64,000 bases of DNA. Origin: Octopus vulgaris. Taxonomy: Eukaryota. Shown here one piece after another: positions 7,900 through 63,520 of this stretch. The position numbers were made by a program, and so were the translations under genes. The stretch's first letter is position 1. The number at the start of each line of letters is the position of its first letter. The stretch spans positions 91,698,001-91,762,000 of the forward strand of contig OX597820.1 of assembly GCA_951406725.2 (NCBI GenBank). The letters are read 5' to 3'. The notes below the pieces were generated by a model. That model ran no database searches. It saw only the letters and a program-made list of their open reading frames with translations, and was not told the DNA's origin.

Positions 7900-8430
7900 A
7901 GAGCAGAAGATGGAAAAAAATGAAGGTAGAAAAAAAAATGAATTTTACAGCTGAAGATATTTGTTTTTAAAAAGTGGAGTTGAACAAGTGCAGGGAAATC
8001 CTAAGAAGGGAGGGGCACGAAGTAAAAGTGACCCCCATATCTGTGAAGTTACAAAGGACACGCAATGAAAGACAATAATATATAGAACATATAGTCTAGA
8101 TACAACAGGAATGGAAATTAATGACAAAACTACAAATTGAGAAGGCATCAAGACCCATCTGGCAGGATGTCACCTACCTTGCCTGAGGGGAAATACGCAA
8201 ATGTGGATGTGAGATTTTCATCCGAAGAAAAGGCCAGGCAACATTCGGTAGCCTTCCTGAAAACAGACGAGGTAATACTTCTGCCTACATACCTTAGAAG
8301 ACGTGCTTCTAGGGCAAGGGTAGAAGAGACCCACCCGAAGGTAGATGTCACCTGACTGGTGGCTGCAATACTGCTGGATGTAGAAGAGACGATACAGGTC
8401 CTCCATGTAACGAGAACGCCACTCGTTGGC
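7900..8430 (+). pseudogene. Decayed homolog of the L1/Tx1-type ORF1 at 17693-18979
   Basis: KTIIYRTY and GKYANVDVRFSSEEKARQHSVAFLKTDEVILLPTYLRRRASRARVEETHPKVDVT*LVAAILLDVEETIQVLH align with RTIIYRVF and SKYGTVVVHFKSESAARKMAAKAVKSEKVTLLPTYLNRRITRIRVEGVPPNVEAEWIVAAVISGHEDEVDILH. Contains stops and frameshifts. Confidence 0.85.
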
Positions 8431-8547
8431 AAAAATGCGTTGATTGCAATAGTACATACTTTGATGAGTAAAATTTCCGCATTATTAAAATATACTGTGA
8501 TGAATTTCATATTTGAAAACATCACTTACTTTTTACTCAGCCTGATT

Positions 8548-12425: not shown

Positions 12426-13384
12426 TTTTTATAGACGATGACACAACCGGAAAGGATCTTGTAAATTATTCTATCCCAGAAAAATTGTGATCGGTGCCTT
12501 AATTCATTATGCTCTATCCTAACATATATCATCACATGTTAAAATTATTTCTGGATAAGTGGCTTGTGAACGACATTTATGATCATGCTTCGTAGTTTGT
12601 GCATTAGAATACATTTCAGCAATTTGATTATTAGTTATTCAGTTTTGCCCAATACACTGTTTCCTTTGTGTTATTATGCCAGTTCAGCGAAACCAGTTTT
12701 AAATTACGATTAAATTATTTAGAATCAAATACCAACTCCCATTATAGTTAAATTTACTAACCACTGAAATATTACCAAAGACGTTATCGTAATATTGTTA
12801 ATCTATTATTTTTTTTTCGTTCACTGATTACAAGCTTCGCAATCATATTTCGTTTATCAAGTGGCATGATTAGCCCTTATTTATAACTGTTGACCTTTTT
12901 TTGTATCCAGAACATGAGTATAGAGCTTGAATAGCCATTTCTCTCATTACTAAGCCCTATAGAGTCAGCTTGTTCAATAGGTTCCTCCTCTCATTGTAAC
13001 AACGTTGATTAGACTATATTTCTATTGGTTATTATGTAGTTATGTAGCATAATTGGCTACTATGAACGGATGAGAACACAATTATCCGTGTCTCCGGGGC
13101 ATTTCAGTAAACTATGCTCTACTTTCAAAGCAGATACAGTAACACACAAAGTTAATTCGCGTTTTAAACTAAATATACAAATACTTCATAATAATGAAGC
13201 TACAGATATTTCGAAAGGTAAAGAAAATTGAAAGCGTTACATTGTTAGATATATAATGTCATTGATTGCAGAATGTAGCCATTCAATAATGCAAACACAA
13301 TATAACATAGAGATTAATTAAAACATATATATGGAGTAGAGAAAGAAACAGTGATATACTACTACGTTCATGCTACAATCACTA

Positions 13385-13388
<4 letters not shown>

Positions 13389-13446
<58 letters not shown>
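13389..13446. repeat. Long (TA)n microsatellite, representative of more than ten TA/CA/TATG tracts in the window
   Basis: Directly visible. Others at ~61-110, 4331-4370, 11625-11675, 23264-23320, 28055-28118, 29422-29469, 50226-50274 and 50324-50370. Confidence 0.98.
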
Positions 13447-13447
<1 letters not shown>

Positions 13448-13969
13448 GTGTGCATGCGTATGAATATAGTGTGTAGACATTTAATATCGATAAACACATA
13501 CACACAATTGTGTGTACGTATGTATGTTTTTATGTATACAATCATATGTATATTAGAAAGAGGAAATTATATTTTCATCAGTAAACGATATGGGTATTAG
13601 ATGTAAATAAGACATTCAGACAGTTTCAAATTTCTAATATATTCTGTACGCTTTCTTTATATTCCACTTATTATTGCAATAGAGGGTGCAATGTGGCCGA
13701 ATTAGATGGAAGCCGTCTGGAGCAAATGTCATTTTTTTTAGCCTTCATTTGTGTGTGGAATTAGGTTGACGCCAACCGTACACTTCGTTCGGGTAGATTG
13801 TAACTCTAATTCAAGAACGTACATCCTAGCCACATATTGTGTCTTCTAATTCTATAGAATTACGTTAATACTACATATGGTTATGGGAATGAGTAGTCGC
13901 TTGCATTAATTTAGTTGATCAGCCACATAAGATCTCTACGTTTGACGGAAGTCAACCACCTCCAATATT

Positions 13970-14202
13970 TTCTTTTACTACCCACAAGGGGCTAAACATA
14001 GAGAGGACAAACAAGGACAGACAAGCGGATTAAGTCGATTATATTGACCCCAGTGTGTAACTGGTACTTAATTTATCGACCCCGAAAGGATGAAAAGCAA
14101 AGTCGGCCTCGGCGGAATTTGAACTCAGAACATAGCGGCAGACGAAGCAGCTAAGCATTTCACCCGGCGTGCAAACGATTCTGCCAGCTCGCCGCCCTTC
14201 AT
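13970..14202 (-). mobile_element. SINE family B, tail 1, with 14-bp TSD
   Basis: Full head-body-tail. Direct repeat CCACCTCCAATATT at 13956-13969 and 14203-14216. Confidence 0.9.
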
Positions 14203-14675
14203 CCACCTCCAATATTGACAAATATATTTTGCTGAATGCGTATTGTAGAAACCGGAGAGAACCGCCTTTCAATCTATTTATGTTACTATCTGCAGACATT
14301 AATAATTAATATATGTTATTTAATAATTGTCCAGTAAGAACATCTGGCAAATGATAAACGTTAATTTTAATTACTTCTTTCATGTTATTGTGAGATAATT
14401 ATAGTTCTTTAGATTGATAATATGTTTGTAAATATGTATATGTATACATCCACACACACTTACACATGCTTACATATAAGGCCGCATATATCTAAATAAA
14501 TATACGAGTACGAGTGAGTGGACAAATGAAAGACGGGTACTCAACTAATTTATTGGTAGTTACATGTATGTATCAAAACAGTTTGATTCAAATTCATTCT
14601 TACATTTCAGTTTCTAACGTGATGCTAATCGGTAGCCATTTTGAATTTGAATGACAGAAGTTGATTGTAATTACC

Positions 14676-14908
14676 TATTTCTTTATTACCCACAAGGGGC
14701 TAAACACAGAGGGGACAAACAAGGACAGACATAGGTATTAAGTCGATTACATCGACCCCAGTGCGTAACTGGTACTTAATTTATCGACCCCGAAAGGATG
14801 AAAGGCAAAGTCGACCTCGGCGGAATTTGAACTCACAACGTAACGACAGACGAAATACCGCTATGCATTTCGCCCGGCGTGCTAACGTTTCTGCCAGCTC
14901 GCCGCCTT
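14676..14908 (-). mobile_element. SINE family B, tail 1 (well-preserved copy)
   Basis: Sense strand reads GGCGGCGAGCTGGCAGAAACGTTAGC..GAGTTCAAATTCC (B box)..CCCCTTGTGGGTAATAAAGAAATA. Confidence 0.9.
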
Positions 14909-15120
14909 GACCGAACAGGTGGGCTGCGATTGGTCGAGGAAGGTGTCGTGGTTTCATGTTGGTATATGGGTAAGAGTTAGTTGTAAAATACTGAATGGCG
15001 AACAGGAAATGGACTGGGTGGAGGAAAGGAAATAAAGCACGTAGTGATTATAAATCAGTCAGGTTGTTGGTGTGGGGTACTAAAGGCAACATATGCAAAT
15101 ATATAGTTCTATATGTAAAT

Positions 15121-15327
15121 AATCGGTGGACCCGGGCAGTTGTCGAGTGGTACCCGCGTGAGCAGAAACTACCGCTCGGAAGGCCTCCACGACGGTGGAG
15201 TTACGATTTCAGGAGGACGATTGGGATCATGTGGATGACAAAGGCGCTATCCAGAGGAGTTAACAGCGTGCTGTGACCAGCGGTGTCAAATGGACGCCCG
15301 ACGAACTGGTCGGTCAAGGTCAAGCTG
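15121..15327 (+). mobile_element. 5'-truncated RTE-clade LINE 3' end
   Basis: NRWTRAVVEWYPREQKLPLGRPPRRWSYDF is the RTE C-terminal WxPRxxKRxxGRPxxRWxD motif. Possible 8-bp TSD ATGTAAAT at 15113-15120 / 15328-15335. Confidence 0.8.
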
Positions 15328-16500
15328 ATGTAAATGTGCAGACGCACTCATATAGATTTGTGTGAATATGTATATTGATACGAGTTTGCGCATCTCTACA
15401 TGGGCTCGCACGCGCACGTCTGCAAATATACACACAGGCACATGCACACATGTGCTTCGCCGAACACGCACGAGGACAGAGCGCCACCATATTCATCCGG
15501 TTCCCCCCTAACTGCTAGCTCTGCCCCCGCGAAAAACTGCATATCCTCCAACAACCCTCAGTATCCATTAACAAGAAATATGATTTATGGAATTGCTGTA
15601 ACCAGAGATACGCTCTTCTGACAAATTTCAGGTCCCTGGCTGGCGACAACCTGGATATACCACTTTAGTCTCAGCTGCTACACTAGGCCGCCTGCACCAA
15701 GGTCTCCTGTACCAAGCAATCTCATGACCAGGACCGCCATTTACTAATCCCCAAAGTTTACCAACTCCAAACGCAAACCAGTCCCCAAGACATACACATT
15801 CCCAACGCTTACCAATGCCCAAATTTACTTTCCGCTTGTATACTCGCGCACACGCGCAAGCAAGTGCAAATGTGCACGCGCATGGGTGTATGTGCACACA
15901 CTGGTAGGCATGCTTACATTCCTGCGAATATACATCTGTATATATGAATGAATACACATGTGTGTCTATGGGTGTATGTGTGTGCATGTGTGCGTATGCC
16001 TATGTATGTGTGTGCGTGTGCTCGTGTGCGTGTTCGTCCAAGCGTGTGTGTTAATGTGTGTGCGTGTGTGCAGACGTGCGCGTGTGAACCTATGTACAGA
16101 TGCGCACACTCGCATCAATATACACAAGCACGCAAAAATATATGGGCGCGTCTGTAAACCTACATATAGAACTATATCCTTGCACATGCAGCTCCTTCTT
16201 ACACCCCTTCCTCGAAAAACCCAACCGATTTTTAGTCGCCATGTCCTCTATTTCCTGCTCACCATGTTGTTAATTTCCTCTTTGCCATGCAGTATTTTAC
16301 AATTAACTTTTACCCACCCTTATACCACGATGAAACCACGACACCGCGTGAGCTTCCTCGACCAGGCCAACTTTATGGTAATAAGAATCAACTTCTGTCA
16401 TCCAAATTGGAAATGGCTGACGACTAGCATCATGCTTGAAACTCAAGCGTAGTAAGATATTTGAATCAAAGTGTTTCCTTTCCATATATATATATATATA

Positions 16501-16752
16501 TATATAATATAATTCGAGACAAAACCACTATTTTAAAACCAAACAAGAAAAGACTTAATCAATATATAAAATTTTAATATAAAATATTTATTTAATTTAT
16601 ATTAAAATTTTATGTATTGATTAAGTCTTTTCTTGTTTGGTTTTAAAATAGTGGTTTTGTCTCGAATTATATTATATAATATTTTACTATAAAATTGGAT
16701 TTAACCCTAAATCTGATTTTTCCCTGTAATTTTGGATTCATTCCCTAATATT

Positions 16753-16757
<5 letters not shown>
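16501..16757. repeat. Fold-back insertion within (TA)n: 83-bp inverted repeat plus unique tail
   Basis: Arms 16501-16583 and 16596-16678 with one mismatch and a 12-bp spacer. (TA)n on both sides. Confidence 0.85.
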
Positions 16758-16829
<72 letters not shown>

Positions 16830-16830
16830 A

Positions 16831-16980
16831 TGGCATATGGCATAGTGGTTAAGAGCGCGGGCTACTAATCCCAAGATTACGAGTTCGATTCCAGGCAGTG
16901 ACCTGAATAATAATAATACTACTACTAATAATAATAATAACATCGAAAAATTCCTTAGGAACGAGAACCCAGGTTCGAAA
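16831..16980 (+). mobile_element. tRNA-headed SINE family D, 3'-truncated
   Basis: TGGCATAGTGG (A box), GTTCGATTCC (B box), internal (AAT)n, then aacatcgaaaaat..cttagga..gagaacccaggttcgaaa. Homologous to 30062-30286. Confidence 0.8.
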
Positions 16981-17539
16981 TGGATTATAGGAAATGTGAG
17001 CAACATATGTTTCATAGCGAGTAAAACCTCATAAGTGATAAAATCCAAGTGAGTTTTAAAAAATAGAATACAAAATAGATTGGAATTATTCTTTATTATC
17101 GCATAGGAGGATTAACACAGATGGGGATGGCAATACAATGATAAGTAATAGAAGAACGGAAGTAAGAAGAGAAAGAGAAATAAATAAATAAAATAAAATA
17201 ATTTTTTAAAAAATAGAATACAAAATAGAGGAATGAGAGAAAGGGGGATGTGGACGGGTCGGTGTGGTAGATAATATAGTAGTTTTAGATTAATCATCTC
17301 AGAATTCAGTTGAGGGATTGGCATGTGAAGTGAAGGGAAATTGGAGAAGAGATGGTGGGGGTGAAATATTTTGGGTCACAGGGGACAAAAGAAAATGTCT
17401 GAATAAAGTAAGATGGAATGGGGTGTTTAAGTAAGGCTAGTCGTTTCATGGTCAAAAGGCGTAAATTTATGTTAACGGGTGGCAAGGGTAAGTGTGGGAA
17501 GGGGCAGAAATGTAAGGAGAGAATAATATTTTAGGTATT

Positions 17540-18990
17540 TATTTCTTTATTACCCACTAGGGGCGACACAGAGGTGAACACCAAAAGACATGGGGACATA
17601 GAACATTTATAATTAAAATTTATGAAAAATGAATTGTTAAGTGAAAGAAAATGATATTATGAAAGCGATACCAACGGCCCCATCCGTCAGCATCACTTAC
17701 CTGTCCTTTGTTTTTCATCGTCCCTTGAATGTTCTTTGCCAATACGAATAAATTCCATATCCATTCTTACTCCGAAATACTCATCCATATTTTCCACGAA
17801 TTCATCGCTCATTCTTATATCTTTCACCTCCCAATTCTCCCTTTCACACCTCACCACAAACTCATATATGTTCTTCTTTTCAATCACAGCATACCTAGTC
17901 TCACCAACTTCATACCATTTATACTCTTCCATTAGACTTTTAACTTCTTTCTGTTCAGTCATAGTACAAATGTACGGCCTGATATCGAATTCAATCTCTT
18001 GTCTGTGTGTATTCTCTTTTTTTTTCTTTTGTTTTCTTGTTGGGGGGGAGCGGGTGGGTTCAATGTCTGCATGGATAGGGTGGGACTCAGAGGGTGTGGG
18101 TGGTTTTGGGGTAGATTGGTGTTCCATGTTATTTTCTTTTCCTCGCATTCTTCTCTTCCTCTTATTTCCAACTTCCTTCCATTTCTGTGTATTCTCTTCC
18201 TCTTCTACTGTCTCCTTCTCCTCTGGTTTCTGCTTCTCTCTCTCTGGTTCGGAAGCCATTTCTTTCCCTGGGGGAGGGCAGAAGGCTCTTATGTGACCCC
18301 TCAGGCCACACTTGTAACAACGTGGAGCTCTGCCCTCCACCCACACTCTCATGATCACGTCTCCCAATCTGATGCTTTCCGCCAGGTCCACCAGTACCTC
18401 GTTCTCCGCCTGTACGTTCAGCTCCACTGTTACGCCTCTCCAGCCCTCGGACTTAACCGAGGCATGGAGAATATCCACTTCGTCCTCGTGGCCGCTGATC
18501 ACAGCCGCCACAATCCACTCTGCCTCCACGTTTGGTGGCACTCCCTCCACCCTTATTCGTGTAATCCTTCTGTTTAAATACGTAGGTAACAGTGTTACCT
18601 TTTCTGACTTCACCGCCTTCGCCGCCATCTTCCTCGCTGCAGACTCACTTTTAAAATGCACAACTACTGTGCCGTACTTGGATCCTCGAGTCAGAAAATA
18701 AATTTCCTCCTCAGTTCTTCTCAGGGCTTCCTCTATCCATTCCATGGTTACAACTTCTACCCTCTTCCTTTCGTTTGCGAACACCCTGTAAATAATGGTC
18801 CTCTTATCATACCATTCTTTTCTCCTGGGTGTCGGTGATAGTTCCACCTCACTGCTTTCCTTTTTCATGTATTTCTGGTAACTTGGTAGCTTGGCCAAGT
18901 CGACCCCTTTCTCTTCCGCCTTCTTGGTTACACCGGCGTAGGTATATCCCAGCTTCTCGTCCAATTTCCTTGCTGCCATTTCTAGCTCAG
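17540..18990 (-). mobile_element. ORF1-only (HAL1/Half-L1-like) non-LTR retroelement with 15-bp TSD
   Basis: Direct repeat AATATTTTAGGTATT at 17525-17539 and 18991-19005 brackets 11 nt of leader, the ORF and a ~150-nt 3' UTR ending CCCCTAGTGGGTAATAAAGAAATA. No RT or endonuclease. Confidence 0.85.
17693..18979 (-). CDS. L1/Tx1-type ORF1p (gag-like): RRM-like region, one CCHC zinc knuckle, charged linker, unknown C-terminal domain; 428 aa, intact
   Basis: CYKCGLRGHIRAFC (CX2CX4HX4C, 18278-18319). RNP-like YGTVVVHF and IRVEGVPP. WKEVGNKRKRR basic motif. Uninterrupted frame with higher GC than the flanks. Confidence 0.85.
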   Translation of the reverse strand: MAARKLDEKLGYTYAGVTKKAEEKGVDLAKLPSYQKYMKKESSEVELSPTPRRKEWYDKRTIIYRVFANERKRVEVVTMEWIEEALRRTEEEIYFLTRGSKYGTVVVHFKSESAARKMAAKAVKSEKVTLLPTYLNRRITRIRVEGVPPNVEAEWIVAAVISGHEDEVDILHASVKSEGWRGVTVELNVQAENEVLVDLAESIRLGDVIMRVWVEGRAPRCYKCGLRGHIRAFCPPPGKEMASEPEREKQKPEEKETVEEEENTQKWKEVGNKRKRRMRGKENNMEHQSTPKPPTPSESHPIHADIEPTRSPPTRKQKKKKENTHRQEIEFDIRPYICTMTEQKEVKSLMEEYKWYEVGETRYAVIEKKNIYEFVVRCERENWEVKDIRMSDEFVENMDEYFGVRMDMEFIRIGKEHSRDDEKQRTGK

Positions 18991-19548
18991 AATATTTTAG
19001 GTATTAAGTAAAAATACGCATAGAAAATAATAATTGATGATTAAGGAATTGAAAAAGGTGAAAAAATATTGTTGGTTTAGTACGTAGAGGTAGTGAGTGG
19101 ACGAGTAGGAAAAAGAATATATTAAGACAAAAGCGGGGTGGAGTAATTATTTGTGTTTCGAGAATAGATTTAATGCCCGATTTTTGCAGGTGAATATTAT
19201 ATTATACGTAATTTTACAATATAGTTCAAGAACATTTTCACATCCAAACACTCACTTACTATTTCACTGATGTAAACGAGTTTAGAAATTTAGTAATCGT
19301 CAACAATTCAAATTTGCAACACTAATGAACGAATATGAATACAGTGATAGACTGGAATTTCATCTTGAAATAAGTTACTGGCATCTATTTCGTTTTTCAT
19401 CAAAACATACACACATATACACACTTGCATATTTATGTGTGTGTGTTTGTGAATACATAAATACTAAAGTGAAGTAGAAACTGAAAAATCATAGTTAAAT
19501 AAAAATTTGTGAGAATCACACATAACCATACATAAAACTCCAGAAATA

Positions 19549-20068
19549 CCGTAAATCCTCGAGTATAATCCGTATTTTTTCCTAAAATTTAAAGGTCAAA
19601 ATCCCTCGTGCGTGCTATATACGAGGTTAAAAATGAAAAATATTTTCTAAGCAATGTTCGAGTCTCTATTTGCTGTCCGGCAATGTTTATTCAGACGCAT
19701 TTTGTAACGTCTTGCATGAAAACACCTTAAGCTAAGCCTGAAAGCAATGAAGTCATAAAAGAATCATCCATAACTTGCAATAAGCAACATTTATTAAAAT
19801 AAAAGTATTCAGAACACAGAATAACATGTAACAAAAACAATTGCAAACATATTTACATTCCCATATAACAGTTAAGAACATCACCATTATTGCATTACGC
19901 ATGCGCGGAAGTGCTTGTTCGACTAGGTGCTGCTGGCTTAACTACGCACAACTCAAGTTAGAGAAGTGGTGCGTATTATACACAAGGTTTAGGCTTTTCA
20001 GATGTACAACCTCCTAAAAATCCCCTGCGTATTATACCCAAGGGCGGACTATACTCGAGGATTTACGA
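19549..20068. mobile_element. Pogo/Tigger-like MITE (non-autonomous Tc1/mariner superfamily)
   Basis: 24-bp TIRs CCGTAAATCCTCGAGTATAATCCG / CGGACTATACTCGAGGATTTACGA (22/24). TA dinucleotide on both sides. Subterminal repeats of GCGTATTATAC type. Confidence 0.85.
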
Positions 20069-22289
20069 TATACATAAACATTCAGAGAGTCTTATTTTTT
20101 AAAAATAGTATGCACATGCGCTCGTACAAACTCAAAAACGCCCACACATTCGCATATGGCTTCTTAATAAACAGTAAGACACATAAGAATTACCATAGTT
20201 CGGCTTTGAACATAAAGCTTATAAAATATAGAAACACTTCTAGTTTGCAAAGATATCCAAAATATTTTATTTATATTTTATAATAAAACTAATTTCATGC
20301 CACGCAGTACGATAAAGTGAATCATCATGGATACAAATTTTGTAACATTTCCCTTCCATGCCAAAAACAATAATTAAATGCTATGAGTCCTATAAAAATA
20401 TGATATACACGCATATTAATTGATGGTAAAAAATTTTAGATCATTTCATGGATTAGATTGTGTAGCTTTTTTTTAAGCTTTTCCCTTTCTTTTTTTGCAT
20501 TTTCTAGCTGGTTGGTTTATACCATATATTGTTTTCTACGAAAGAATGCCTAAGCTTCTTAAATTTTAATTCTCTACACAATACCAATAAAATAGTCAAA
20601 TAAAAATATAGTCTAAAGTCTTTCTGTTCTGTATTTTAATGACATTAATTTATAATATAAGAGATTATGTTATTTTAATGTTATTTGAAGTCCATACAGA
20701 CCAAATTGTCAGACTCATGTCACATCACGTCAAATTCCTCTAACCGTTCTAGTCCCCACAAATAACGTTGAACTCTTCTTCTTTATTACTTTTTCTTTAA
20801 TATCTACCCTGAGATTTAGGTTGTGTAGAAAGCACCTTCCAAATATTTAAGATACTTGTTTCTTTAAAATATTGGTAATATTAACATTTTCTAAAAATAG
20901 ATGCAAGTTTGAATGTATTCTAAATTTTCTATTTGTATATATATACGTTTCTATTTTGTTGATAAAATATAAATATTGAATTAATGATAGAGATTGTTTG
21001 GAATTATACTTTAAAATATATCTCCTTTTCCAAAATGTTAGAAAGAAAATATTGTCCAAAGAAACACGTCATATAATTGATCTTTACCACTGTCATTTTA
21101 ACACTTTCGACATCAATTCAACCGAGAAATCTCATTGTTTCTTAAAATTTTTAGGTAATTAAAATATTCTTTCATACTTTCATGTAATAACGTTTTGTTG
21201 GCTTATATATCAAACATCGGTTTGATAATAAAATTATAATTATAACGCAAAAATTTTCCTGTAAAGCTTTATTATTATTATCAAACTTGAGACACTTACG
21301 CTATATATTCCAAGAAGCATGAATTAATAATTCATGTGTGCATTATGTGCAGTTCTGTTTTTGATGTCTAAGTCTTTGATTTTGATATCTTAAGAATTCA
21401 TTGGATTCATTTAATCTACTTAACGGCCAGTGAACTTGGTAGAGCATCGACAGGCTTTCCATTAGCTGTTAGATTATATAGGGGAAATAAAACATTTTCC
21501 CCAGAGGAATATATTGGTAAAATGTATATAAGTATTGCATGAAACTTTTGATTCAAAATTTTTATATTTTCAAATAATGAGTTTCAAATTGTACTATCGG
21601 TTTTAGTGGAATTTCAAACGTTGTTCCCAAGATATATAACAATATTTAGTTATCGTATATTATCGACATGTCTAGCATTTCTTCAGGATCTACCTCTACC
21701 TGATCGACATTCTCATTTACTCTAATGAAAAATGAATATGAAAATGTGAAGCTATTTAATTGAAAATGGTTATTAGATTGTTATTCATCAGTATCTTCAA
21801 ACCTTTTTACCAAATCTACTTAGACAGTAAACAATTGTTTGCCGAATGTTTATTGAGATGTAAAATAGGTGTCTCACGCTAAATAAAGCAGTGGTATTAA
21901 TGCAGTTGGTATCTTTTGAGTAAAATTAAATTCACCATATCTGTAGACAAAATCATAAATTTATTTTACCACTGAGAGAGAATTCTTGTAAATTATACGA
22001 ACCGCGGCAGGTTATTAAAGTAATAAATATTAAATGTATTCGTACGTTCATTGTATGAACTTCTTTCTATTTCTTGTCCATTATGATAGCATTAATAAGA
22101 TTATGTGGGATTTTAAATTATGATATTAAACGCAGTAAGTTATATTATTTAAATTTACGATGTTGTCCCTTCATTACATTGCAAAACGCTGGTTGAAGTA
22201 GGACTGTTTACGAAATGGAACTTCCTTACTGTGTATGTATGCGTGTGTGTCTGTGCATGTGTGTATATGTATATACACACACACACACA

Positions 22290-30061: not shown

Positions 30062-30286
30062 TTGCCCTCGTCTTGTTTGTTGTTAACACAACGTTTCAGT
30101 TGATATACTCTCCAGCTTTCTTTAGGTCTTGCGGAAATTTTGAACCTGGGTTCTCACTCCTAAGGTATTTTTCAATGTTATTATTATTATTATCATTATT
30201 ATTATTGTTAGTGTTCAGATGCTTGGAATCGAACTCGGAATCTTGGGGTTAGTAGCCAGCGCTCTTAACCACTACGCCGTATGCCA
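30062..30286 (-). mobile_element. tRNA-headed SINE family D with (AAT)n linker and hammerhead-like 3' module
   Basis: Minus strand: GGCGTAGTGG..GTTCGATTCC..(AAT)n..aagac CTAAAGA aAGCTG gagagtatat CAACT GAAACGTT gtgtt. Confidence 0.7.
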
Positions 30287-39865: not shown

Positions 39866-41432
39866 TATATATATATGCATGTATGTATGTATTTGTGTAC
39901 GCGTTTATACGTGTATGTATGTATGTGTATATATGTGTGTATGTCTTTACATCAACTTAAAAATGTAACATAAATAGATTCTCTACAGAAGACAAGCTGT
40001 AAGTAGTGATTTTGATCAGATTCTCGTATTAGATGAAGCTAGTTTACTACAAGTTATATCATCAGTGTGATCTCTTGGAAAACTTTATTTCACTTGTAGT
40101 TCACCAGTGGTCGAAATATTCTTGAATCATGCAAGTTAAAATTGAGAAAGTACACATTAGAAAGGCATATACTTGCTTAGTGTCCTTATACAGTAAAGAG
40201 AGTAACGAGGGTAATTTTATACCCATACTTTAGAAGATTATTGAAGTTTGTTACATCAAACATTGCTATTTCTTAGAATTTTACAGCTTGGATCCCAATC
40301 AACCCTATTCAAAAATCTTACAAAGCATAGATCAAATACTATGTATAATATTACAGCCATCGATATGGAAAATTTTAATGGTACTCTCAACACACTATTA
40401 TTTCGGAAATTGAATTGACTAATTATACACTCAGTAGTCTACTCCTAATATAGTTGTGCATATGTATGTGTGTGTGTATGTATGCATGCATCCGCGCGCG
40501 TGTGTGTGTGCATGTATGTGCACGTGTATGTATGCGCACGTGAGTGTGTGCCTTTTGCAAATCGTGGCACAAAGTACCACAAACACAAATATTTTCTTAT
40601 GCTGCTATGGAATACAATAATTGCTGTTTGGGAATATTGAAATTATAGCTACAGTCTTGCTTAGTTATTTTGGAATGTTCGACTAGGTGTGTCTCTTTTT
40701 TTTAAAAAAAAAATTACTTTGATATTTTTAAAGGATTCTAAGACCTTTGTATATTAATAAGTTAATCAGAGAGGTAATATTGTATATTCTACTCCTAATT
40801 GCACGGGGAATTTTTCAACTCATTAAGAATGGATTCCTCAGAGCTTCTCAATGTGTAGGGAAAAAAGCTATAAAAAAAGGTATATTCGACGATTTCAATG
40901 GCTGGCTTTAATCATATATGTACTTTAATTTTCTTCAGTACGAAGAAATAAACACACATTAATCAATATCTTAATCTATTTTTATAAAATTCCTCCGACC
41001 TCTACTGTAAGGTATTCACGCTATGGATATTTATGTGCTTGGTTTAGTTACCAATTTTGTTTTTAATAGAGTAATAAATGAAGCGATCAATTTGTTTTAC
41101 TGTTATTTGAACCCAGAGTGTCGACTTATCAACGACTTATCATAGAATCATGAAGATTTATAAACTATTTTAATGGTAAGTCACATTTTCAGTCGGAAAT
41201 TTTCCCTAAAAAACTCACTCAATAAAACGTTTGGAGTATAAACTTTGAAGAAATTGGGATTCAACTGTGGACTGGATGGCTCCCAAATTTCACCGGCCAG
41301 CAAATTTATAGAAATGATTGCTCTAAGAAAATACTTTTATACTTGTATTCAAAATAGACAGCTACAATCCTAAGACATTAAAAATGAAGATAAATAAATA
41401 AATAGATACATATATAAACTAAATGAGTAAAT

Positions 41433-42255
41433 TTAGCGGTATTTCGTCTATTTTTACGTTCCGAGTTCAAATTCCAACGAGGTGGACTTTGCCTTTCATT
41501 CTTACGGGCTCCATAAATTAAGTAACAGTTGCGTACTGGCGTTGATCTAATCGACTGGCCCTGCTCTCCAAATATTTCGGGCCTCTTGCCTAGAATAGAA
41601 AATAATATTTTAGTGAATATATAAGACGGTGAGCTGGTTGATTCGTTAGCACGCTGGGCGAAATGTTTATCGGTATTTGGTCTGCCGTTACGTTCTGGGT
41701 TCAAATCCTGCCGATTTAGACTTTGCTTTTCATCCTTTCGTGGTCAATAAATTAAGTACCAGTGAAACATTGGGGTCGATGTAATCGACTAGTCCCCTCC
41801 ACTAAAATTTCCGGCCTTGTGCCTGTAGTAGAAAAGAATCATTAACTTGCCGGGCAAAATGTTTAACGGCATTTCCATCATCCTTGCTTTCTGAGTTCAA
41901 ATTCCGCCGAAGTCAATTTTTCGTTTCATCTCTTCGGAGGCGATAAAATAAGTTCCAGTTGAACACTGGGAGCGATATAATCGACTTACCCCCTATCCCG
42001 AAACAGTTGGCTATGTGCCAAATTTTGAAACGAATGTTTTAGTGAATATATCAGGCAGCGAGTTGGTAGAATTATTAGCACGCCAGAAAAATTGCTTAAC
42101 GGCATTTCAACCGTCCTTACGTTCTGATTAAAAATTCTGCTGAACCTGACTTTCGGGGTCGATAAAGCAAGTAGTAGTTGAAAACTGGAATCGATGTAAT
42201 CGACTTACCTTCTTTCAAAATTGCTGGCCCTGTGTCAAAATGCGAAATCAGTATT
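41433..42255 (+). mobile_element. Head-to-tail cluster of four SINE family B (tail 2) units
   Basis: Units at ~41433-41607, 41623-41842, 41843-42036 and 42052-42255. Direct repeat TTTTAGTGAATATAT at 41608-41622 and 42037-42051. Confidence 0.85.
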
Positions 42256-44329: not shown

Positions 44330-44892
44330 TCCAATGTTGCCGCAACTGCATCAACCTCTGGAGAAGGGGGGGGGGTAAGTCGATAACATCGATTCCAGTA
44401 TTTAACTGGTTCTTATTTTATCGACCCCAAAAGGATGAAAGGCAAAGTCGACCTCGGCGGAATTTGAACTCAGAACACAAAGACAGACGGAATACCTATC
44501 TCTTTAGAACCCACAAGGGGCTAAACACAGAGGGAACAAACAAAGACAGATAAACGGATTAAGTCGATTATACCAGTGCGCAACTGGTACTTATTTAATC
44601 GACCCCGAAAGGATGACTGGCAAAGTTGACCTCGGCGGAATTTGAACTCAGAACGTATCGGCAGACGAAATACCTATTTCTTTACTACCCATAAGGGGAT
44701 AAACACAGAGATGACAAACAAGGATAGACAAGCGGATTAAGTCGATTATATTGACTCCAGTGTGTAACACGTACTTAATTTATCGACCTCGAAAAGATGA
44801 CCTCGGCGGAATTTGAACACAGAACATAACTGCAGACGAAATACCGCTAAGCATTATTCCCGGCGTGCTAACGATCCTGCCAGTTTCTTGCC
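44330..44892 (-). mobile_element. SINE family B trimer (one tail-2 unit, two tail-1 units)
   Basis: Two internal junctions, both at ..AATACC|TAT(C/T)TCTTTA.. Confidence 0.85.
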
Positions 44893-50278: not shown

Positions 50279-50320
50279 GCATGCATGTATGTATGTATAC
50301 ACTGATTTACAATATATTTC

Positions 50321-50370
<50 letters not shown>

Positions 50371-50374
<4 letters not shown>

Positions 50375-52082
50375 AATATGATTATATGACCAATTTCACA
50401 AGTAAAACTAGCCAATTCTACGGTATACCTAAGATCCACAAAAGTGAAAAAATAAGCAACGCATGCAAGATAGCTACAGACAAAATAATTAAAGTCCCTA
50501 ATCCTAATGACCTCAAATTGAGACCCATAATAGCAGGTCCCGCATGCGAAACCCACCGCCTCAGTAACTTTTTAGACACCCTGTTAAAACCACTCCTCAA
50601 ACATGTCAAAAGCTATATAAGGGACGACTTAGATATGCTCAATCACCTACCGAATACTATAAACAAAAACACCATACTGGTATCCTTCGATGTAGTCAAC
50701 CTCTACTCCAATATCCCCCACAACCTAGGACTAGAAGCAATCCAATTCTGGCTAGAGAATCACGCCAACGAACTACCACACCGCATCAAAAAAGAATTTG
50801 TGATAGAAGGGGTTAAATTCATCCTGGAAAATAACTTCTTCGCCTTCAATGACAACTTCTACCGACAAAAATCGGGGACTGCGATGGGTACACGAATGGC
50901 CCCCTCCTTTGCCAACCTAGTCATAGGATACCTAGAGATCAGTCTGTATCGTAAGGTTCTAGAAAGATATGGCAGCCCTTTCTCCATCTACATAGAAAAC
51001 AACTGGAAGAGATATCTAGATGACTGTTTCATCCTTTGGCATAAAAATATAGAAAAACTCATAGAATTCCAGAAAATTTTAAACGGACTGGACGTAAACA
51101 TCCAATTCACGATGGAATATAGCCAACAACAACTCCCCTTCCTCGATATCCTCATTAAGAAAGCTAATAATATAATAGAAACAGACATATACTATAAGCC
51201 TACAGACTCTAAGCAATATCTTCCATTCAATTCATGCCACCCCAGACACACCAGGATGAATATCCCCTTCAATCTAGCAAAAAGGATATGCACTATAGTC
51301 TCTAACGCAAACACCAGAGACACACGACTACAAGAACTAAAAGATACCCTAATCACCAGGAACTATCCACCTTCACTTATTGACAAGTGCATTCAACGTG
51401 CCCTTCAACTTAACATCAAGGAACTGAGACATCCCAAATCAAAGAAAAACTTACAACCAAAAGCCTTACCATACATCTCCACACACAACCCTCTCAATAA
51501 CGAAGCCTTCGACACCATCCTCCACAACATACCCCTCCTAAAAAAAGACCACAGAATGAACACAATCCTCCAAACACACACGATCATAAAAAGCAAAAGA
51601 CAGCCTAGATCCATGAAAAGTCTCCTTACACAAGCCCGAATTCACTCTTCAACACAGAAGCCGACAGTAAAAAAATGTGGAAGACCCAATTGCGGGATAT
51701 GCGACTATCTAATCGAGGGTTCTGAGTTCTCCTTCAAACAGGGACAACGGTTTACAGTGAAAAGCAACTCCACATGTGCTTCGGAGAACCTAATATACTC
51801 ACTAACCTGCTCCGGGTGTCAAGAGCAGTACATAGGCCAAACAAAAAATTGTTTGCGTAAACGAATGGCCCTGCACAGATCCCAGATAAAAATTCCCCAA
51901 AACAGAAAAATAGCTTTTAGCCAACAAATAGATACTTGCGCCAACAAAAAAACACCAAACTTCAGAATTTCCCCCTCTACCAATTTAGGGACGATACAAC
52001 CTCGAGACAAAGAATAAGTAAAGAAAATCTCTTTATTACAAAATACAAGCCACTTCTTAACGGGTCTACGACAAACAATTAA
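50371..52082 (+). pseudogene. PLE reverse transcriptase + Cys-linker + GIY-YIG endonuclease; N-terminally truncated, one frameshift near 51970
   Basis: YGIPKIHK, LRPII, VSFDVVNLYSNIP, GTAMGTRMAPSFANL, WKRYLDDCF, LPFLDI, YYKPT..SCHP, CGRPNCGIC and NLIYSLTCSGCQEQYIGQT..RMALH. The shifted frame continues LYQFRDDTTSRQRISKENLFITKYKPLLNG..* to 52082. The ORF-track start at 50281 is (TA)n-derived. Confidence 0.92.
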
Positions 52083-57473: not shown

Positions 57474-57895
57474 ATATTCTTTTGCACTCTAGGCACAAGG
57501 CCTGAAATTTGGTGGGGGGCAGTCGATTAGATCGAACCAGTAATTAATTTATCGACCCCGAAAGGATGAAAGACAAAGTCGACCTCGTTGGAATTTGAAC
57601 TCTAGTGTAAAAACAGACGAAATACCGCTAAGCATTCTTTCCCCCGGCGTGCTAACGTTTCTTATTTCTTTATTGCCCAAAACGGTCTAAACCTAGAGGT
57701 GACAAACAAGGACAGACAAACTTATTAAGTCGATTATATCGACCCCAGTGCGTAACTGGTACTTATTTAATCGACCGCGAAATGATGAAAGGCAAAGTCG
57801 ACCTCGCCGGAATTTGAACTCAGAACGTAACGGCAGACAAAATACGGCTACGCATTTAGCCCGGCGTGCTAACGCTTCTGCCAACTCACCGCTTT
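57474..57895 (-). mobile_element. SINE family B dimer (tail-2 unit joined to tail-1 unit)
   Basis: Junction gctaacgtttct|tatttctttattgccc at ~57662. Confidence 0.85.
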
Positions 57896-60885: not shown

Positions 60886-63164
60886 GTTATATCAAATTAG
60901 CAGGAATTTTCTGTCTCTTTAATACAGTATAGGATGTATATCTGTTGCATTTCTCTAGATTCGTTACCATTCCTCTAATACAGGGTTCACTTTTACATAT
61001 AAGTTTATCAACCGATCAGTTCTCCCAATTCTCAAATATTCTATGTTCCTAAAGTAGAAGGCTTGTATTTGAGATGCATATTGACAGTGTTACATAAAAA
61101 ATTAAATATCGCCCTTGATTGATTGTCCGACGTAGCATTCGTTGTATCTTTGAATGCTTTACCTGTGTGGAATTCATATTCCAGCAATGTATAGTAGAAT
61201 ACTAATTCCTTCTTATACATAGCATTTTAATTTACGCTATTGACGGAAACTTTGGCTAACGCATATTAGAAACAATATTTCCCCAGACCTCAGTTCATTG
61301 AAGCCGTAAACATCTGTTAAATAGCTCATGGCTGCATGTAGGTGACACAAGGAATGAAACGAAAGGAAATGTAAAACTATTGTTTTCATAGAAGTATATG
61401 CATGTATAAATATATAATAGAAGTATATGCATGTGGAAATACAAGGAAAATATGTCAGAGTCGTAGTCAATAATTGGAACAGTTAACATCCCCATTACGA
61501 TATCGTATCTAATCATATCAAATGTTAACTTAACTCAGTTAATATTCTACGATTTGCTACCTCTTGTTTATTTTTGTCCGTGTTATTATATCCATAATAT
61601 ATTTCTTTGCTTTATCTCTGTTTATGTCCAACTACTTCTGTTTTTTTTCCTCCGTTTAAACCTTACAATCTAACATATTTTATGTTACTATAACAGTAAA
61701 ATAAATTGTGAACCATTGAATATATATGTAAAACTTCTTAGAACTCATATCTTATAACGCCTGGTTTATTTTTGTAAACCATATTAGGAGCATAAGGCTA
61801 TAAATACATATTACTCTCACATTAAAATGCGGTATACATGAGTCTAAATAACATCGCTGAAAAAACTTAGTTATAGTAGAAAACGCTGCACAAAATCACA
61901 TGAAAACACACGTGTTCGTATGTGTGTGCTTATATACCCATACAAAGAGAAAGAAAGATAACGCTCTATGGTTAAGAAACTCACTACTCAAATATGTTTT
62001 CAGGTTCTTTAATATATGTGAGGAAATTATTTCAGGTTCTCCGATAAAGTGTGTCTTTTCCCTGTTATATTCTTAATGAATTCTTATTTTCATTAATAAA
62101 TTTTGTATATTTTAACCATTCTATTCTTCATTCCACTGTTTAATAAAAAATAAAAATTAACGGAAGTGTCTACACACTGGCATGTTCTTTTACATGTTTA
62201 AATCACTTGAATTGCCATTCAACCAAAAATAATCTTATATGTGTGTGTATGTATGTATGTATGTATGTGTATGTGCGCGTGCGTGCGTGTGTGTGTGTGT
62301 GTGTGTGTTACTCTGAGTGCGTTATAATCCAAGTTGTATCGTCATGGTGCATATCTGCATATTACAGTACTGCAAAGTATATTTGTATTTTTATTTTAAA
62401 TAACAATTGAAAATTTAGACATTACTGTTAAGCACTGAAAATTATTAATTGCAGAGTAATTACATAAAACAGAAAAAAATGAAAAAAAATGTTTTTGGTA
62501 TAATCTAATCCGCATTATATGTTTCGTTCTTAGTAGGAGTTACATAGGTATAAATGTAGAAAAACATGTAAAATATATAAAAACCTCTTGTTGGCTATTC
62601 TTCAGACAGAGAATTAAAATAATGCATTATTTTAAAGAATGAACCATATGTTATGCGGAAAAATGCCAAAGAATTGTTCCAAGTTCATGCTTTAATATGT
62701 GCGAGCGCTTGTATGTGCATATACATAAGTGAACACTTTAATGCAGAGATGTAGAAGTTTTAGTATAGACGAGAAGACATCAGCAGACTAGAGAATACAT
62801 CTTATTGAAACTAGAGTAACAAATTATATTTAAGATGAAAATTCACATTGCATAGCTTTCAGTGCATGGCTTTATAAACCATTAAAGTGAGAACGGTTAA
62901 GGGCAACATCATTTCCAGTGATACAATTATTACCAAGTGTATGAAAAGTTATTATAATACGGAAACGTGGAACAAAGCGTCTATTAATCAAGATGATGAC
63001 GTTAATGACGGGTGTTGTAAATATATTGGGGGAGGAAGGTAAAATAATTATAGTATCTTTAATGTAAACTAACCTGTTCTGATTTTACACCTGCATACAA
63101 ATTCAACCTTAGAAAAAGACAAATTGTCATTATTACTGAACATAAATAAATTTAACTGCATCTT

Positions 63165-63520
63165 ATTTTTTCGGTCGTCTTTTCGTTCTGATTTCAAATT
63201 CTGCCGAGCCAGGCTTTACCTTTCATCATTTTACAGGCAATAAAATATGTAATAGTTGAAAAATGCGGTCCATGTAAGCGGCTTACCTCTCCCCCAAAAC
63301 TGCAGGTCCTGTGCCACATTCTGAACTTAACATTACAGCAAAATACTGCTGTATCTCAATTCTTCTGCCGACTTTATGTTTTGAATTGAAATGCTTACCG
63401 AGGTCGATTTTGCATTTGATCACTTCGGAATCGACAAAATAATCACCAGTCGAACATTGAGGTTGATGTTATCGACTTTCTCCTTCCCGTGGAACTGCAG
63501 GTCATGTGCCAAAAATGTAG
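63165..63520 (+). mobile_element. Two degenerate tandem SINE family B (tail 2) units
   Basis: cgttctgatttcaaattctgccgag..actgcaggtcctgtgcca, repeated as accgaggtcgattttgc..actgcaggtcatgtgcca. Confidence 0.65.

What the first reader, a model, noticed from the sequence alone, without database searches (positions are those of the whole stretch)
17540..17602. ORF1-only element and the dominant SINE share the same 3' tail: possible three-way parasite system
Seen: the element ends ctatgtccccatgtcttttggtgttcacctctgtgtcgcccctagtgggtaataaagaaata. SINE B tail 1 (14676-14732, 13970-14025) ends ctgtccttgtttgtcccctctgtgtttagccccttgtgggtaataaagaaata. TSD lengths are similar (15 bp and 14 bp). Known: stringent LINE/SINE pairs share the 3' end recognised by the RT. 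Inference: one L1/Tx1-like ORF2p mobilises both the SINE and the ORF1-only element. The ORF1-only element might also supply chaperone ORF1p.
Basis: partly seen in the sequence, partly recalled or inferred. Interest (0 to 1): 0.75.

Follow-up and report, generated by a model that had tools for sequence, protein, structure and literature searches.

The report
Octopus half-LINE shares a SINE's tail
A young, multi-copy octopus jumping gene that encodes only a predicted RNA-binding protein ends in the same short tail as one subfamily of a very common short repeat, so both likely borrow their copying enzyme from full-length Tx1-type elements through that tail, an arrangement rarely described for this group.

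Summary
The shared tail is real. A 1.45-kb element (17540-18988, minus) with one intact 428-aa ORF (two predicted RRMs, one CCHC knuckle; no RT) ends in a poly(A)-less 45-62-nt tail matching five SINE copies above all 1000 shuffles each. Public contigs show an empty site in two runs and deep contigs tiling ORF stop, 3' UTR and tail. The tail is therefore a family trait, not a SINE fragment in this copy. Lineage differences in the RRM-knuckle half are 10 synonymous to 1 nonsynonymous (only 24 displayed sites). Corrections: only 5 of 17 SINE bodies carry this tail; one has a clear TSD; the hairpin shows no compensatory change. I could not see the autonomous LINE: no genome was held. Contigs do show other tail-bearing classes, one sharing the last ~170 nt. 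One shared enzyme is plausible, but sister enzymes are a serious rival. ORF1p supply to the SINE is unsupported. This scan reported the same Tx1/half-LINE/SINE system on other DNA of this genome (unchecked notes). Verdict: new variant of the HAL1/HeT-A kind.

The parts
17540..18988 (-). ORF1-only non-LTR retroelement, 1449 bp (1451 bp, to 18990, if the TSD is read as 15 bp)
   Evidence: TSD; empty site in runs X8 and X6, joint 17522>18989 skipping 1466
17693..18979 (-). Intact ORF1, 428 aa; ATG only 9-11 nt from the 5' end
18326..18832 (-). Two predicted RRM-like domains (about residues 50-138 and 137-218)
   Evidence: AlphaFold pLDDT above 90; Foldseek top hits are tandem-RRM proteins, E 4e-5; Z 9.3 to the La RRM; ZCCHC3 RBD look-alike at 0.90
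18275..18322 (-). Single CCHC zinc knuckle (residues 220-235)
   Evidence: Motif in sequence; Pfam zf-CCHC E 0.065, below cut-off; profile matches knuckles in the PDB
17540..17692 (-). 3' UTR, 153 nt, no poly(A)
   Evidence: tiled by deep contigs
17647..17710 (-). Block (last ORF1 codons and start of the UTR) shared with a second repeat class that has other sequence upstream; candidate junction with the parent LINE's 3' end
   Evidence: X2 records 15 and 16, X1 record 7, loose ends at 17709, depth peak in X2; identity of that class unknown
17540..17601 (-). Shared 3' tail (45-nt core, weaker to 62 nt)
17552..17564 (-). Predicted terminal hairpin, 4-bp stem GCCC/GGGU with 5-nt loop
   Evidence: 22 of 24 cells pair, no compensatory change
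17525..17539 (.). TSD copy at the 3' end (17523-17539 if 17 bp)
18991..19005 (.). TSD copy at the 5' end (18989-19005 if 17 bp)
14676..14906 (-). SINE copy with the shared tail; followed by GGTAAT; no TSD found
13956..14216 (-). SINE copy with the shared tail and a 14-bp TSD beginning AATA
44497..44890 (-). Two shared-tail SINE copies in a train, each ending at GGTATT inside the head of the next SINE
57663..57895 (-). Shared-tail SINE copy ending at another position in the head of an other-tail SINE

Best explanation
This is a recent insertion of a multi-copy octopus retroelement that encodes only ORF1 and ends in the same poly(A)-less tail as one SINE subfamily, and both are likely copied by the endonuclease/reverse transcriptase of full-length Tx1-type LINEs that would recognise a predicted hairpin in that tail. 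Shown: intact single ORF, TSD, empty site, many copies with the same ORF-UTR-tail order, tail similarity confined to the SINE's exchangeable tail module. Inferred: the family arose by joining ORF1 to roughly the last 170 nt of a parent LINE; ORF1p coats its own RNA, which keeps the RRM-knuckle half conserved; borrowed ORF2p binds the tail, nicks the target, primes reverse transcription at the RNA's AAUA end and leaves a 15-17-bp duplication; the SINE gained the same tail by module exchange; at least one ORF2p accepts both tails.
For: Tail match above 1000 of 1000 shuffles for 5 copies; no similarity outside the tail (best E 0.34). Empty site in 2 of 4 runs, contigs of 979 and 961 nt. In X2, contigs of depth 198-270 with 0-2 differences tile 17547-17730, against flank depth 3.9; in X1 one contig bridges tail and UTR (depth 124) and one of depth 1490 covers 17613-17687, against 45.7. 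At 17575 and 17577 most laid depth shows the SINE-like C on the element strand (17577: 92-99% in all four runs; 17575: 75-99% in three, 44% in X2), so the family tail is nearer the SINE than this copy is. Lineage differences: 10 synonymous, 1 nonsynonymous in codons 1-235; the 6 differences private to this copy are all nonsynonymous. Both insertions with a clear TSD have 14-17 bp starting with AATA, the tail's last four letters. O. vulgaris has 80 L1-Tx1 families, 13 recently active (PMC13282606).
Against: No autonomous LINE with this tail was seen in my calls. The element's tail is the outlier (72-81% to SINE tails, a 2-nt indel, a different loop letter). Three of 5 SINE copies end inside another SINE's head; the element does not. 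The hairpin has no compensatory change, and whole-tail folds are weak and differ (z from -2.6 to +0.35). In codons 236-428 all 7 lineage differences are nonsynonymous. The 24 ORF sites are the tool's best-supported rows (40 of 327 shown). Tx1 assignment rests on ORF1 build only. Contig depth is not a copy number.
Confidence: 0.5

Rival explanations
1. The tails are homologous by descent, but different sister Tx1 families move the SINE and the ORF1-only element. There are two parallel pairs, not one three-way system.
For: 20-25% tail divergence; at least two further tail-bearing classes in contigs (X2 records 9 and 10; block 17647-17710); 80 L1-Tx1 families in O. vulgaris; different landing sites in this window; an unchecked scan note reaches the same reading for another locus.
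Against: The last 30 nt are 27/30 identical to the best SINE copy, and the family letters are closer still; published SINE-LINE tail matches in bivalves span 35-61 bp at 72-95% identity (PMC11481361 passage); TSD length and the AATA start agree.
Confidence: 0.3
2. The copies are repeated deletion or splicing by-products of an autonomous LINE with the same ORF1, and selection acts on that parent; the short form does not propagate itself.
For: The 5' UTR is 9-11 nt, so no promoter is evident; a strong AG|GTAAGT donor-like site lies at the ORF end; most loose-end rows were hidden (12 of 74 shown, 24 of 598).
Against: One ORF-UTR-tail junction is carried by deep near-identical contigs in two runs and by diverged variants; no shown loose end leads from the ORF1 end into other sequence; 0 of 20 database proteins bearing this C-terminal domain have a Pfam RT or endonuclease hit, although P0004 ends in an endonuclease-like fragment by eye.
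Confidence: 0.1
3. The family's founder took its tail from the SINE by template switching, so the direction is SINE to element rather than LINE to both.
For: SINE-type tails are about 40-55 times deeper than the element-type tail in two runs, so SINE RNA is an abundant donor.
Against: Similarity stops at the border of the SINE's tail module and includes no body; another class shares the last ~170 nt, well beyond the SINE's tail.
Confidence: 0.08
4. Chance similarity, or a SINE fragment inserted in this copy only.
For: The region is AT-rich and the SINE is abundant.
Against: 0 of 1000 shuffles for each of 5 copies; the tail lies inside the TSD; the empty site lacks it; deep contigs carry it.
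Confidence: 0.01

Closest known systems
ORF1-present bipartite non-autonomous LINEs: HAL1 (L1 clade), HeT-A (Jockey), Ag-Sponge (CR1) (PMC5786205 passages; PMC5753468 passages; Bao and Jurka 2010 not read)
   Same: Encodes ORF1p only, has LINE-type ends and a TSD, is multi-copy and needs a partner's RT
   Different: Type I ORF1p (RRM+CCHC) of Tx1-like build, a clade not named in that list; no poly(A); tail shared with a SINE subfamily; 5' UTR of 9-11 nt
SINEU with Tx1-Mar in crocodilians (PMC4494074 passages)
   Same: A Tx1-clade LINE is proposed to move a SINE; insertions into another repeat and tandem trains
   Different: SINEU ends in poly(A), and no LINE sharing the SINEU-1 3' terminus was found; the link there is target choice. 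No ORF1-only tier appears in the passages read
Stringent L1-clade pairs: maize LINE1-1_ZM with ZmSINE2/3, Chlamydomonas L1-1_CR with SINEX-3_CR (PMC3747384 passages)
   Same: A conserved ~45-nt 3' end with a hairpin shared by an L1-group LINE and SINEs
   Different: [quoted passage not shown]
Bivalve conserved-domain SINEs with CR1, CR1-Zenon, L2 and Nimb partners (PMC11481361 passages)
   Same: Mollusc SINE bodies with exchangeable LINE tails of 35-61 bp at 72-95% identity
   Different: No L1/Tx1 partner among the four clades; 'Tx1' has 0 occurrences in the paper (listing)

Membership tests
ORF1-present non-autonomous LINE (HAL1/HeT-A/Ag-Sponge kind) | Encodes an ORF1 protein and no RT or endonuclease | tested here: met
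   One 428-aa ORF fills 1287 of 1449 bp between TSDs; RRM+CCHC; no RT
ORF1-present non-autonomous LINE (HAL1/HeT-A/Ag-Sponge kind) | Moves by retrotransposition (TSD, empty site) | tested here: met
   15-17-bp TSD; empty site in 2 of 4 runs
ORF1-present non-autonomous LINE (HAL1/HeT-A/Ag-Sponge kind) | A family of copies with the same short structure | tested here: met
   Deep contigs tile ORF stop, UTR and tail in X1 and X2; no single contig spans a whole copy
ORF1-present non-autonomous LINE (HAL1/HeT-A/Ag-Sponge kind) | 5' and 3' parts derive from an autonomous LINE | tested here: inconclusive
   A second class shares 17647-17710, but its coding content is not visible; parent not found
HAL1 proper | Mammalian L1-type ORF1p (coiled coil, single RRM, CTD; Transposase_22) | tested here: not met
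   Two RRM-like domains and a CCHC knuckle; no Transposase_22 hit; types as in PMC5203782
HAL1 proper | Poly(A) end read by L1 ORF2p (L1 behaviour; HAL1's own end recalled) | tested here: not met
   The element ends in GAAATA at the TSD
Tx1 clade | RT phylogeny | not testable with these tools
   No RT in the element; no linked ORF2 retrieved
Tx1 clade | Type I ORF1p with RRM and CCHC | tested here: met
   this build also occurs in other clades, so it is not diagnostic
Tx1 clade | Target-sequence preference | tested here: inconclusive
   One copy; its TSD starts with the reverse complement of the GGTATT at which 2 of 5 SINE copies end; 3' flanks in contigs are mixed (agreement 0.5-0.83)
Stringent SINE/LINE pair | SINE tail matches the 3' end of an autonomous LINE | tested here: inconclusive
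   Match to the ORF1-only element is shown; the LINE side rests on unchecked notes
Stringent SINE/LINE pair | Conserved 3' stem-loop | tested here: inconclusive
   22 of 24 cells pair, 0 compensatory changes, 6 sequences
Stringent SINE/LINE pair | Tail required for mobilisation | not testable with these tools
   Needs a retrotransposition assay
tRNA-Deu/Nin SINE | tRNA-derived head | tested here: inconclusive
   ARAGORN found 0 genes in the window; Rfam gave no tRNA match in 13000-21000
tRNA-Deu/Nin SINE | Deu/Nin central domain | not tested
   The resemblance is recalled, from no call; tRNA-Deu SINEs are reported as abundant in octopus

The most novel reading that the evidence does not exclude
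One Tx1-type ORF2p, reading a poly(A)-less 3' hairpin, feeds three tiers in octopus: its own LINE, a still-active ORF1-only parasite whose RRM-knuckle protein is kept by selection, and a SINE subfamily that swapped in the same tail. The half-LINE was born by a jump from the end of ORF1 to about 170 nt from the parent's 3' end. This would be an animal L1-group system with stringent tail recognition and two competing parasites, with polymorphic insertions available for testing.
Probability: 0.35. Interest if true: 0.7.

Novelty: new variant of a known kind. Interest (0 to 1): 0.5.

Why it matters
L1-group elements are the standard exception to tail-specific SINE mobilisation: one review counts 3 SINEs with L1 tails against over 800 L1-clade LINEs, and the crocodilian Tx1-SINE link has no shared tail. 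A young Tx1-type system with a shared poly(A)-less tail would let one test whether stringent recognition is ancestral in this group. It would also show what ORF1p does for an element without its own RT, and how two parasites divide one enzyme. SINEs make up 11.6% of the O. vulgaris genome, and naming a driver for one subfamily bears on how that load arose. Each ingredient is known; the combination in this clade was not found in my seven literature searches.

Tried and rejected
Finding the autonomous partner: no genome held; tail patterns gave 0 matches in viral, metagenome and prokaryote collections; the ORF1 protein gave 0 relatives among 583 metagenome pattern hits; no longer ORF1-containing protein at 750-2140 aa or 1296-3700 aa, which is weak evidence. 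In the window, Pfam on 120 of 148 complexity-filtered frames of 70 aa or more (the 28 left out lay in the element, SINE copies or simple repeats) found only the Penelope-like RT. A tail profile found the six known tails and nothing above the shuffle range. The 30-letter loose end at 17709 (4 contigs, agreement 0.85) reads open in two of three frames by eye, which is chance level; no stored protein carried the motifs, so I do not call it an ORF2 end. Expression: no RNA holder listed; not tested. The C-terminal domain gave no atlas hit and a low-confidence model; its Ephrin Pfam match is below cut-off in the window protein. Whole-tail folding gave no common structure. One search used a mis-registered structure and is superseded. 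TSD searches around 7 further SINE copies with rough ends were uninformative. Look-ups of scan notes by sequence or words returned nothing. Albertin 2015 was not held.

Full report
Setting. The window is octopus DNA: the closest named protein hits are Octopus vulgaris and O. bimaculoides. No whole genome is held, so genome-wide evidence comes from public contigs laid on the window. Their depth is not a copy number and is used only as a ratio to the flanks.

The observation. Both quoted tails are in the sequence. The element's 3' UTR aligns to five SINE copies (ending at 13968, 14676, 44497, 44675, 57663) with scores of 34-57; none of 1000 dinucleotide shuffles reached the score for any copy. 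The best match is 27/30 over the last 30 nt and 38/47 over the last 45, fading by about 62 nt. Outside the tail the element and the SINE share nothing (best E 0.34). The tail marks a subfamily: of 17 SINE-body hits, 5 carry it, 9 carry a different tail and 3 are decayed or cut (by eye). TSDs of 15 bp (element) and 14 bp (SINE at 13970) are real; the other four SINE copies gave none.

The element. It spans 17540-18988 on the minus strand: 9 nt, a 428-codon ORF, a 153-nt UTR, no poly(A). A model built on 74 sequences is confident over about residues 21-230. It matches tandem-RRM proteins (Foldseek E 4e-5; Z 9.3 to the La RRM) and is followed by one CCHC knuckle. Atlas neighbours are CCHC proteins and ZCCHC3-type RNA-binding domains (0.90-0.92). 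This is Type I ORF1p, which PMC5203782 (passages) finds consistent with the Tx1 clade in non-mammalian animals; it is not diagnostic. There are 352 relatives at E up to 0.001. Several begin with the same short N-terminal motif (by eye), so the ORF looks complete at its start.

It is a recent insertion of a family. Runs X8 and X6, labelled as two different organisms, each hold one contig (979 and 961 nt, depth about 45) that crosses the site without the element, skipping 1466 letters. The joint implies a 17-bp TSD with one later change. Summed depth inside the element is hundreds to thousands of times the flank. In X2, whose main family is closest to the window copy, three contigs of depth 198, 270 and 213 with 0-2 differences tile 17547-17607, 17585-17656 and 17627-17730, against a flank depth of 3.9. 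In X1, one contig bridges tail and UTR with over 31 letters on each side (depth 124) and one of depth 1490 covers 17613-17687, against 45.7. ORF stop, UTR and tail are therefore joined family-wide, which refutes a one-off SINE fragment. No contig spans a whole copy. At two tail positions (17575, 17577) this copy differs from most laid depth, and the family letter is the SINE-like one.

Selection. Of the 40 difference rows shown (327 in all), 24 lie in the ORF. Eighteen separate lineages: 10 synonymous and 8 nonsynonymous (p 0.003 against 23% expected, 0.036 against 32% for transitions only). By region they split 10:1 in codons 1-235 and 0:7 beyond. The 6 private to this copy (70% or more of depth in all four runs) are all nonsynonymous. 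This fits a working RNA-binding half, a loose C-terminal half and neutral change after insertion. The rows are the tool's selection, so this is a lead rather than a dN/dS estimate. It favours ORF1p serving its own element (inference); nothing here bears on supply to the SINE.

The missing partner. I did not see it. The only RT in the window is a Penelope-like ORF; collection scans and longer-protein searches were empty. Of 20 database proteins with this C-terminal domain, none has a Pfam RT or endonuclease hit; P0004 ends in an endonuclease-like fragment by eye. Contigs do show other tail-bearing classes. One diverged tail has depth 256. One 550-nt single-copy contig has the tail at about 86% and 486 unlike letters upstream. 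A further class shares 17647-17710 and leaves at about 17709 into other sequence; in X2, depth there peaks at about 3500 against 300-900 on either side, and 79% of depth at 17687 has another letter. That is what a parent LINE's 3' end would look like if the element were ORF1 joined to the parent's last ~170 nt, but it could be another ORF1-only family. O. vulgaris has 80 L1-Tx1 families, 13 with recent copies averaging 5.4 kb (PMC13282606, parts 1-2 of 3 of the text and a supplement search). Unchecked notes of this scan describe Tx1 LINEs with this tail, ORF1-only families and SINE-head targeting on other pieces of this genome. They are leads, not support.

Structure and target. A 4-bp stem with a 5-nt loop, 12 nt from the end, is in the best fold of the last ~50 nt in 4 of 6 tails, shifted in 1 and absent in 1. 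It pairs in 22 of 24 cells with no compensatory change, so sequence conservation alone explains it; folds of the 60-nt tails are weak and differ. Three of 5 shared-tail SINE copies end inside another SINE's head, two at GGTATT; a fourth ends at GGTAAT outside a SINE. The element is not in a SINE head. Both clear TSDs begin with AATA (1.2% of window positions), the last four letters of the tail, which would allow primer-RNA pairing (inference). The element's TSD begins AATACC, the reverse complement of GGTATT (22 occurrences in 64 kb); this was noticed after the fact in one copy and is unexplained.

Mechanism. Shown: one intact ORF1, TSD, empty site, multi-copy short structure, shared tail. Inferred: transcription from an unknown promoter (this copy may be 5'-cut or rely on read-through; depth stays high to 18947 and falls in the next bin); ORF1p binding its own RNA; trans use of a Tx1-type ORF2p through the tail; target-primed reverse transcription. 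That one ORF2p accepts both tails I put at 0.5; separate sister enzymes at 0.3; by-products of a same-ORF1 parent at 0.1; tail captured from the SINE at 0.08.

Comparison and novelty. It works like HAL1, HeT-A and Ag-Sponge (PMC5786205, PMC5753468, passages) but is not HAL1: wrong ORF1 type, no poly(A). SINEU/Tx1-Mar lacks a shared tail (PMC4494074 passages). Stringent L1-group pairs are known from maize, sorghum and Chlamydomonas and are rare (PMC3747384 passages). Bivalve SINE partners are CR1, CR1-Zenon, L2 and Nimb (PMC11481361 passages). Seven searches and passages of PMC4758252, PMC5804259 and PMC8967140 showed no description of an octopus ORF1-only family or a Tx1-tailed octopus SINE. 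Not seen: Repbase, the Zenodo library of PMC13282606, Albertin 2015 and its supplements, Bao and Jurka 2010, and Ohshima and Okada 1994 on octopus SINEs (reference entry only); any of these may already hold the families. Verdict: new variant of a known kind, interest 0.5.

Noticed in passing
window 17054-17229 (minus): A weak tail-like stretch (17089-17124; 7.3 bits, within the shuffle range) lies between two exact 26-nt direct repeats (17054-17079, 17204-17229). It may be an old 5'-cut tail-bearing insertion, 450 nt downstream of the element and in the same orientation.
   Followed up: partly
window 19016-19213 and 17366-17497: Parts of the flanks have several contigs and up to about 20-fold raised depth: the element sits in an older low-copy, pyrimidine-rich repeat. 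No TATA-like box is evident 30 nt upstream (by eye).
   Followed up: partly
window 17696-17978 (minus): The ORF's last ~90 codons end at an AG|GTAAGT donor-like site. Database gene predictions splice this piece into unrelated proteins (P0003, P0005, P0010, P0012-P0017) or repeat it two or three times (P0001, P0002, P0007, P0008), suggesting tandem copies and annotation contamination or exonisation.
   Followed up: partly
window 7950-8500 (plus): Decayed relic of a distant ORF1 of the same group, with stops and frameshifts and no tail found.
   Followed up: partly
window 50281-52017 (plus): Penelope-like ORF with RT (E 1.5e-8) and a GIY-YIG match (E 0.003), open over about 550 codons.
   Followed up: no
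window 16501-16678: Near-perfect palindrome, 86-nt arms 98% complementary with a 6-nt spacer, inside a TA microsatellite; MITE-like or foldback.
   Followed up: no
window 16830-16990 and 30137-30286: A second short repeat with a tRNA-like start and an internal (TAA)n run, two copies 86% alike; ARAGORN does not call it.
   Followed up: no
window 41430-42250, 44340-44890, 57500-57895, 63120-63480: SINE copies stand in head-to-tail trains, mixing the two tail types.
   Followed up: partly
window 19546-19572 and 20045-20071: A 27-nt inverted repeat pair about 470 nt apart (93% alike), possibly the ends of a small DNA transposon upstream of the element.
   Followed up: no
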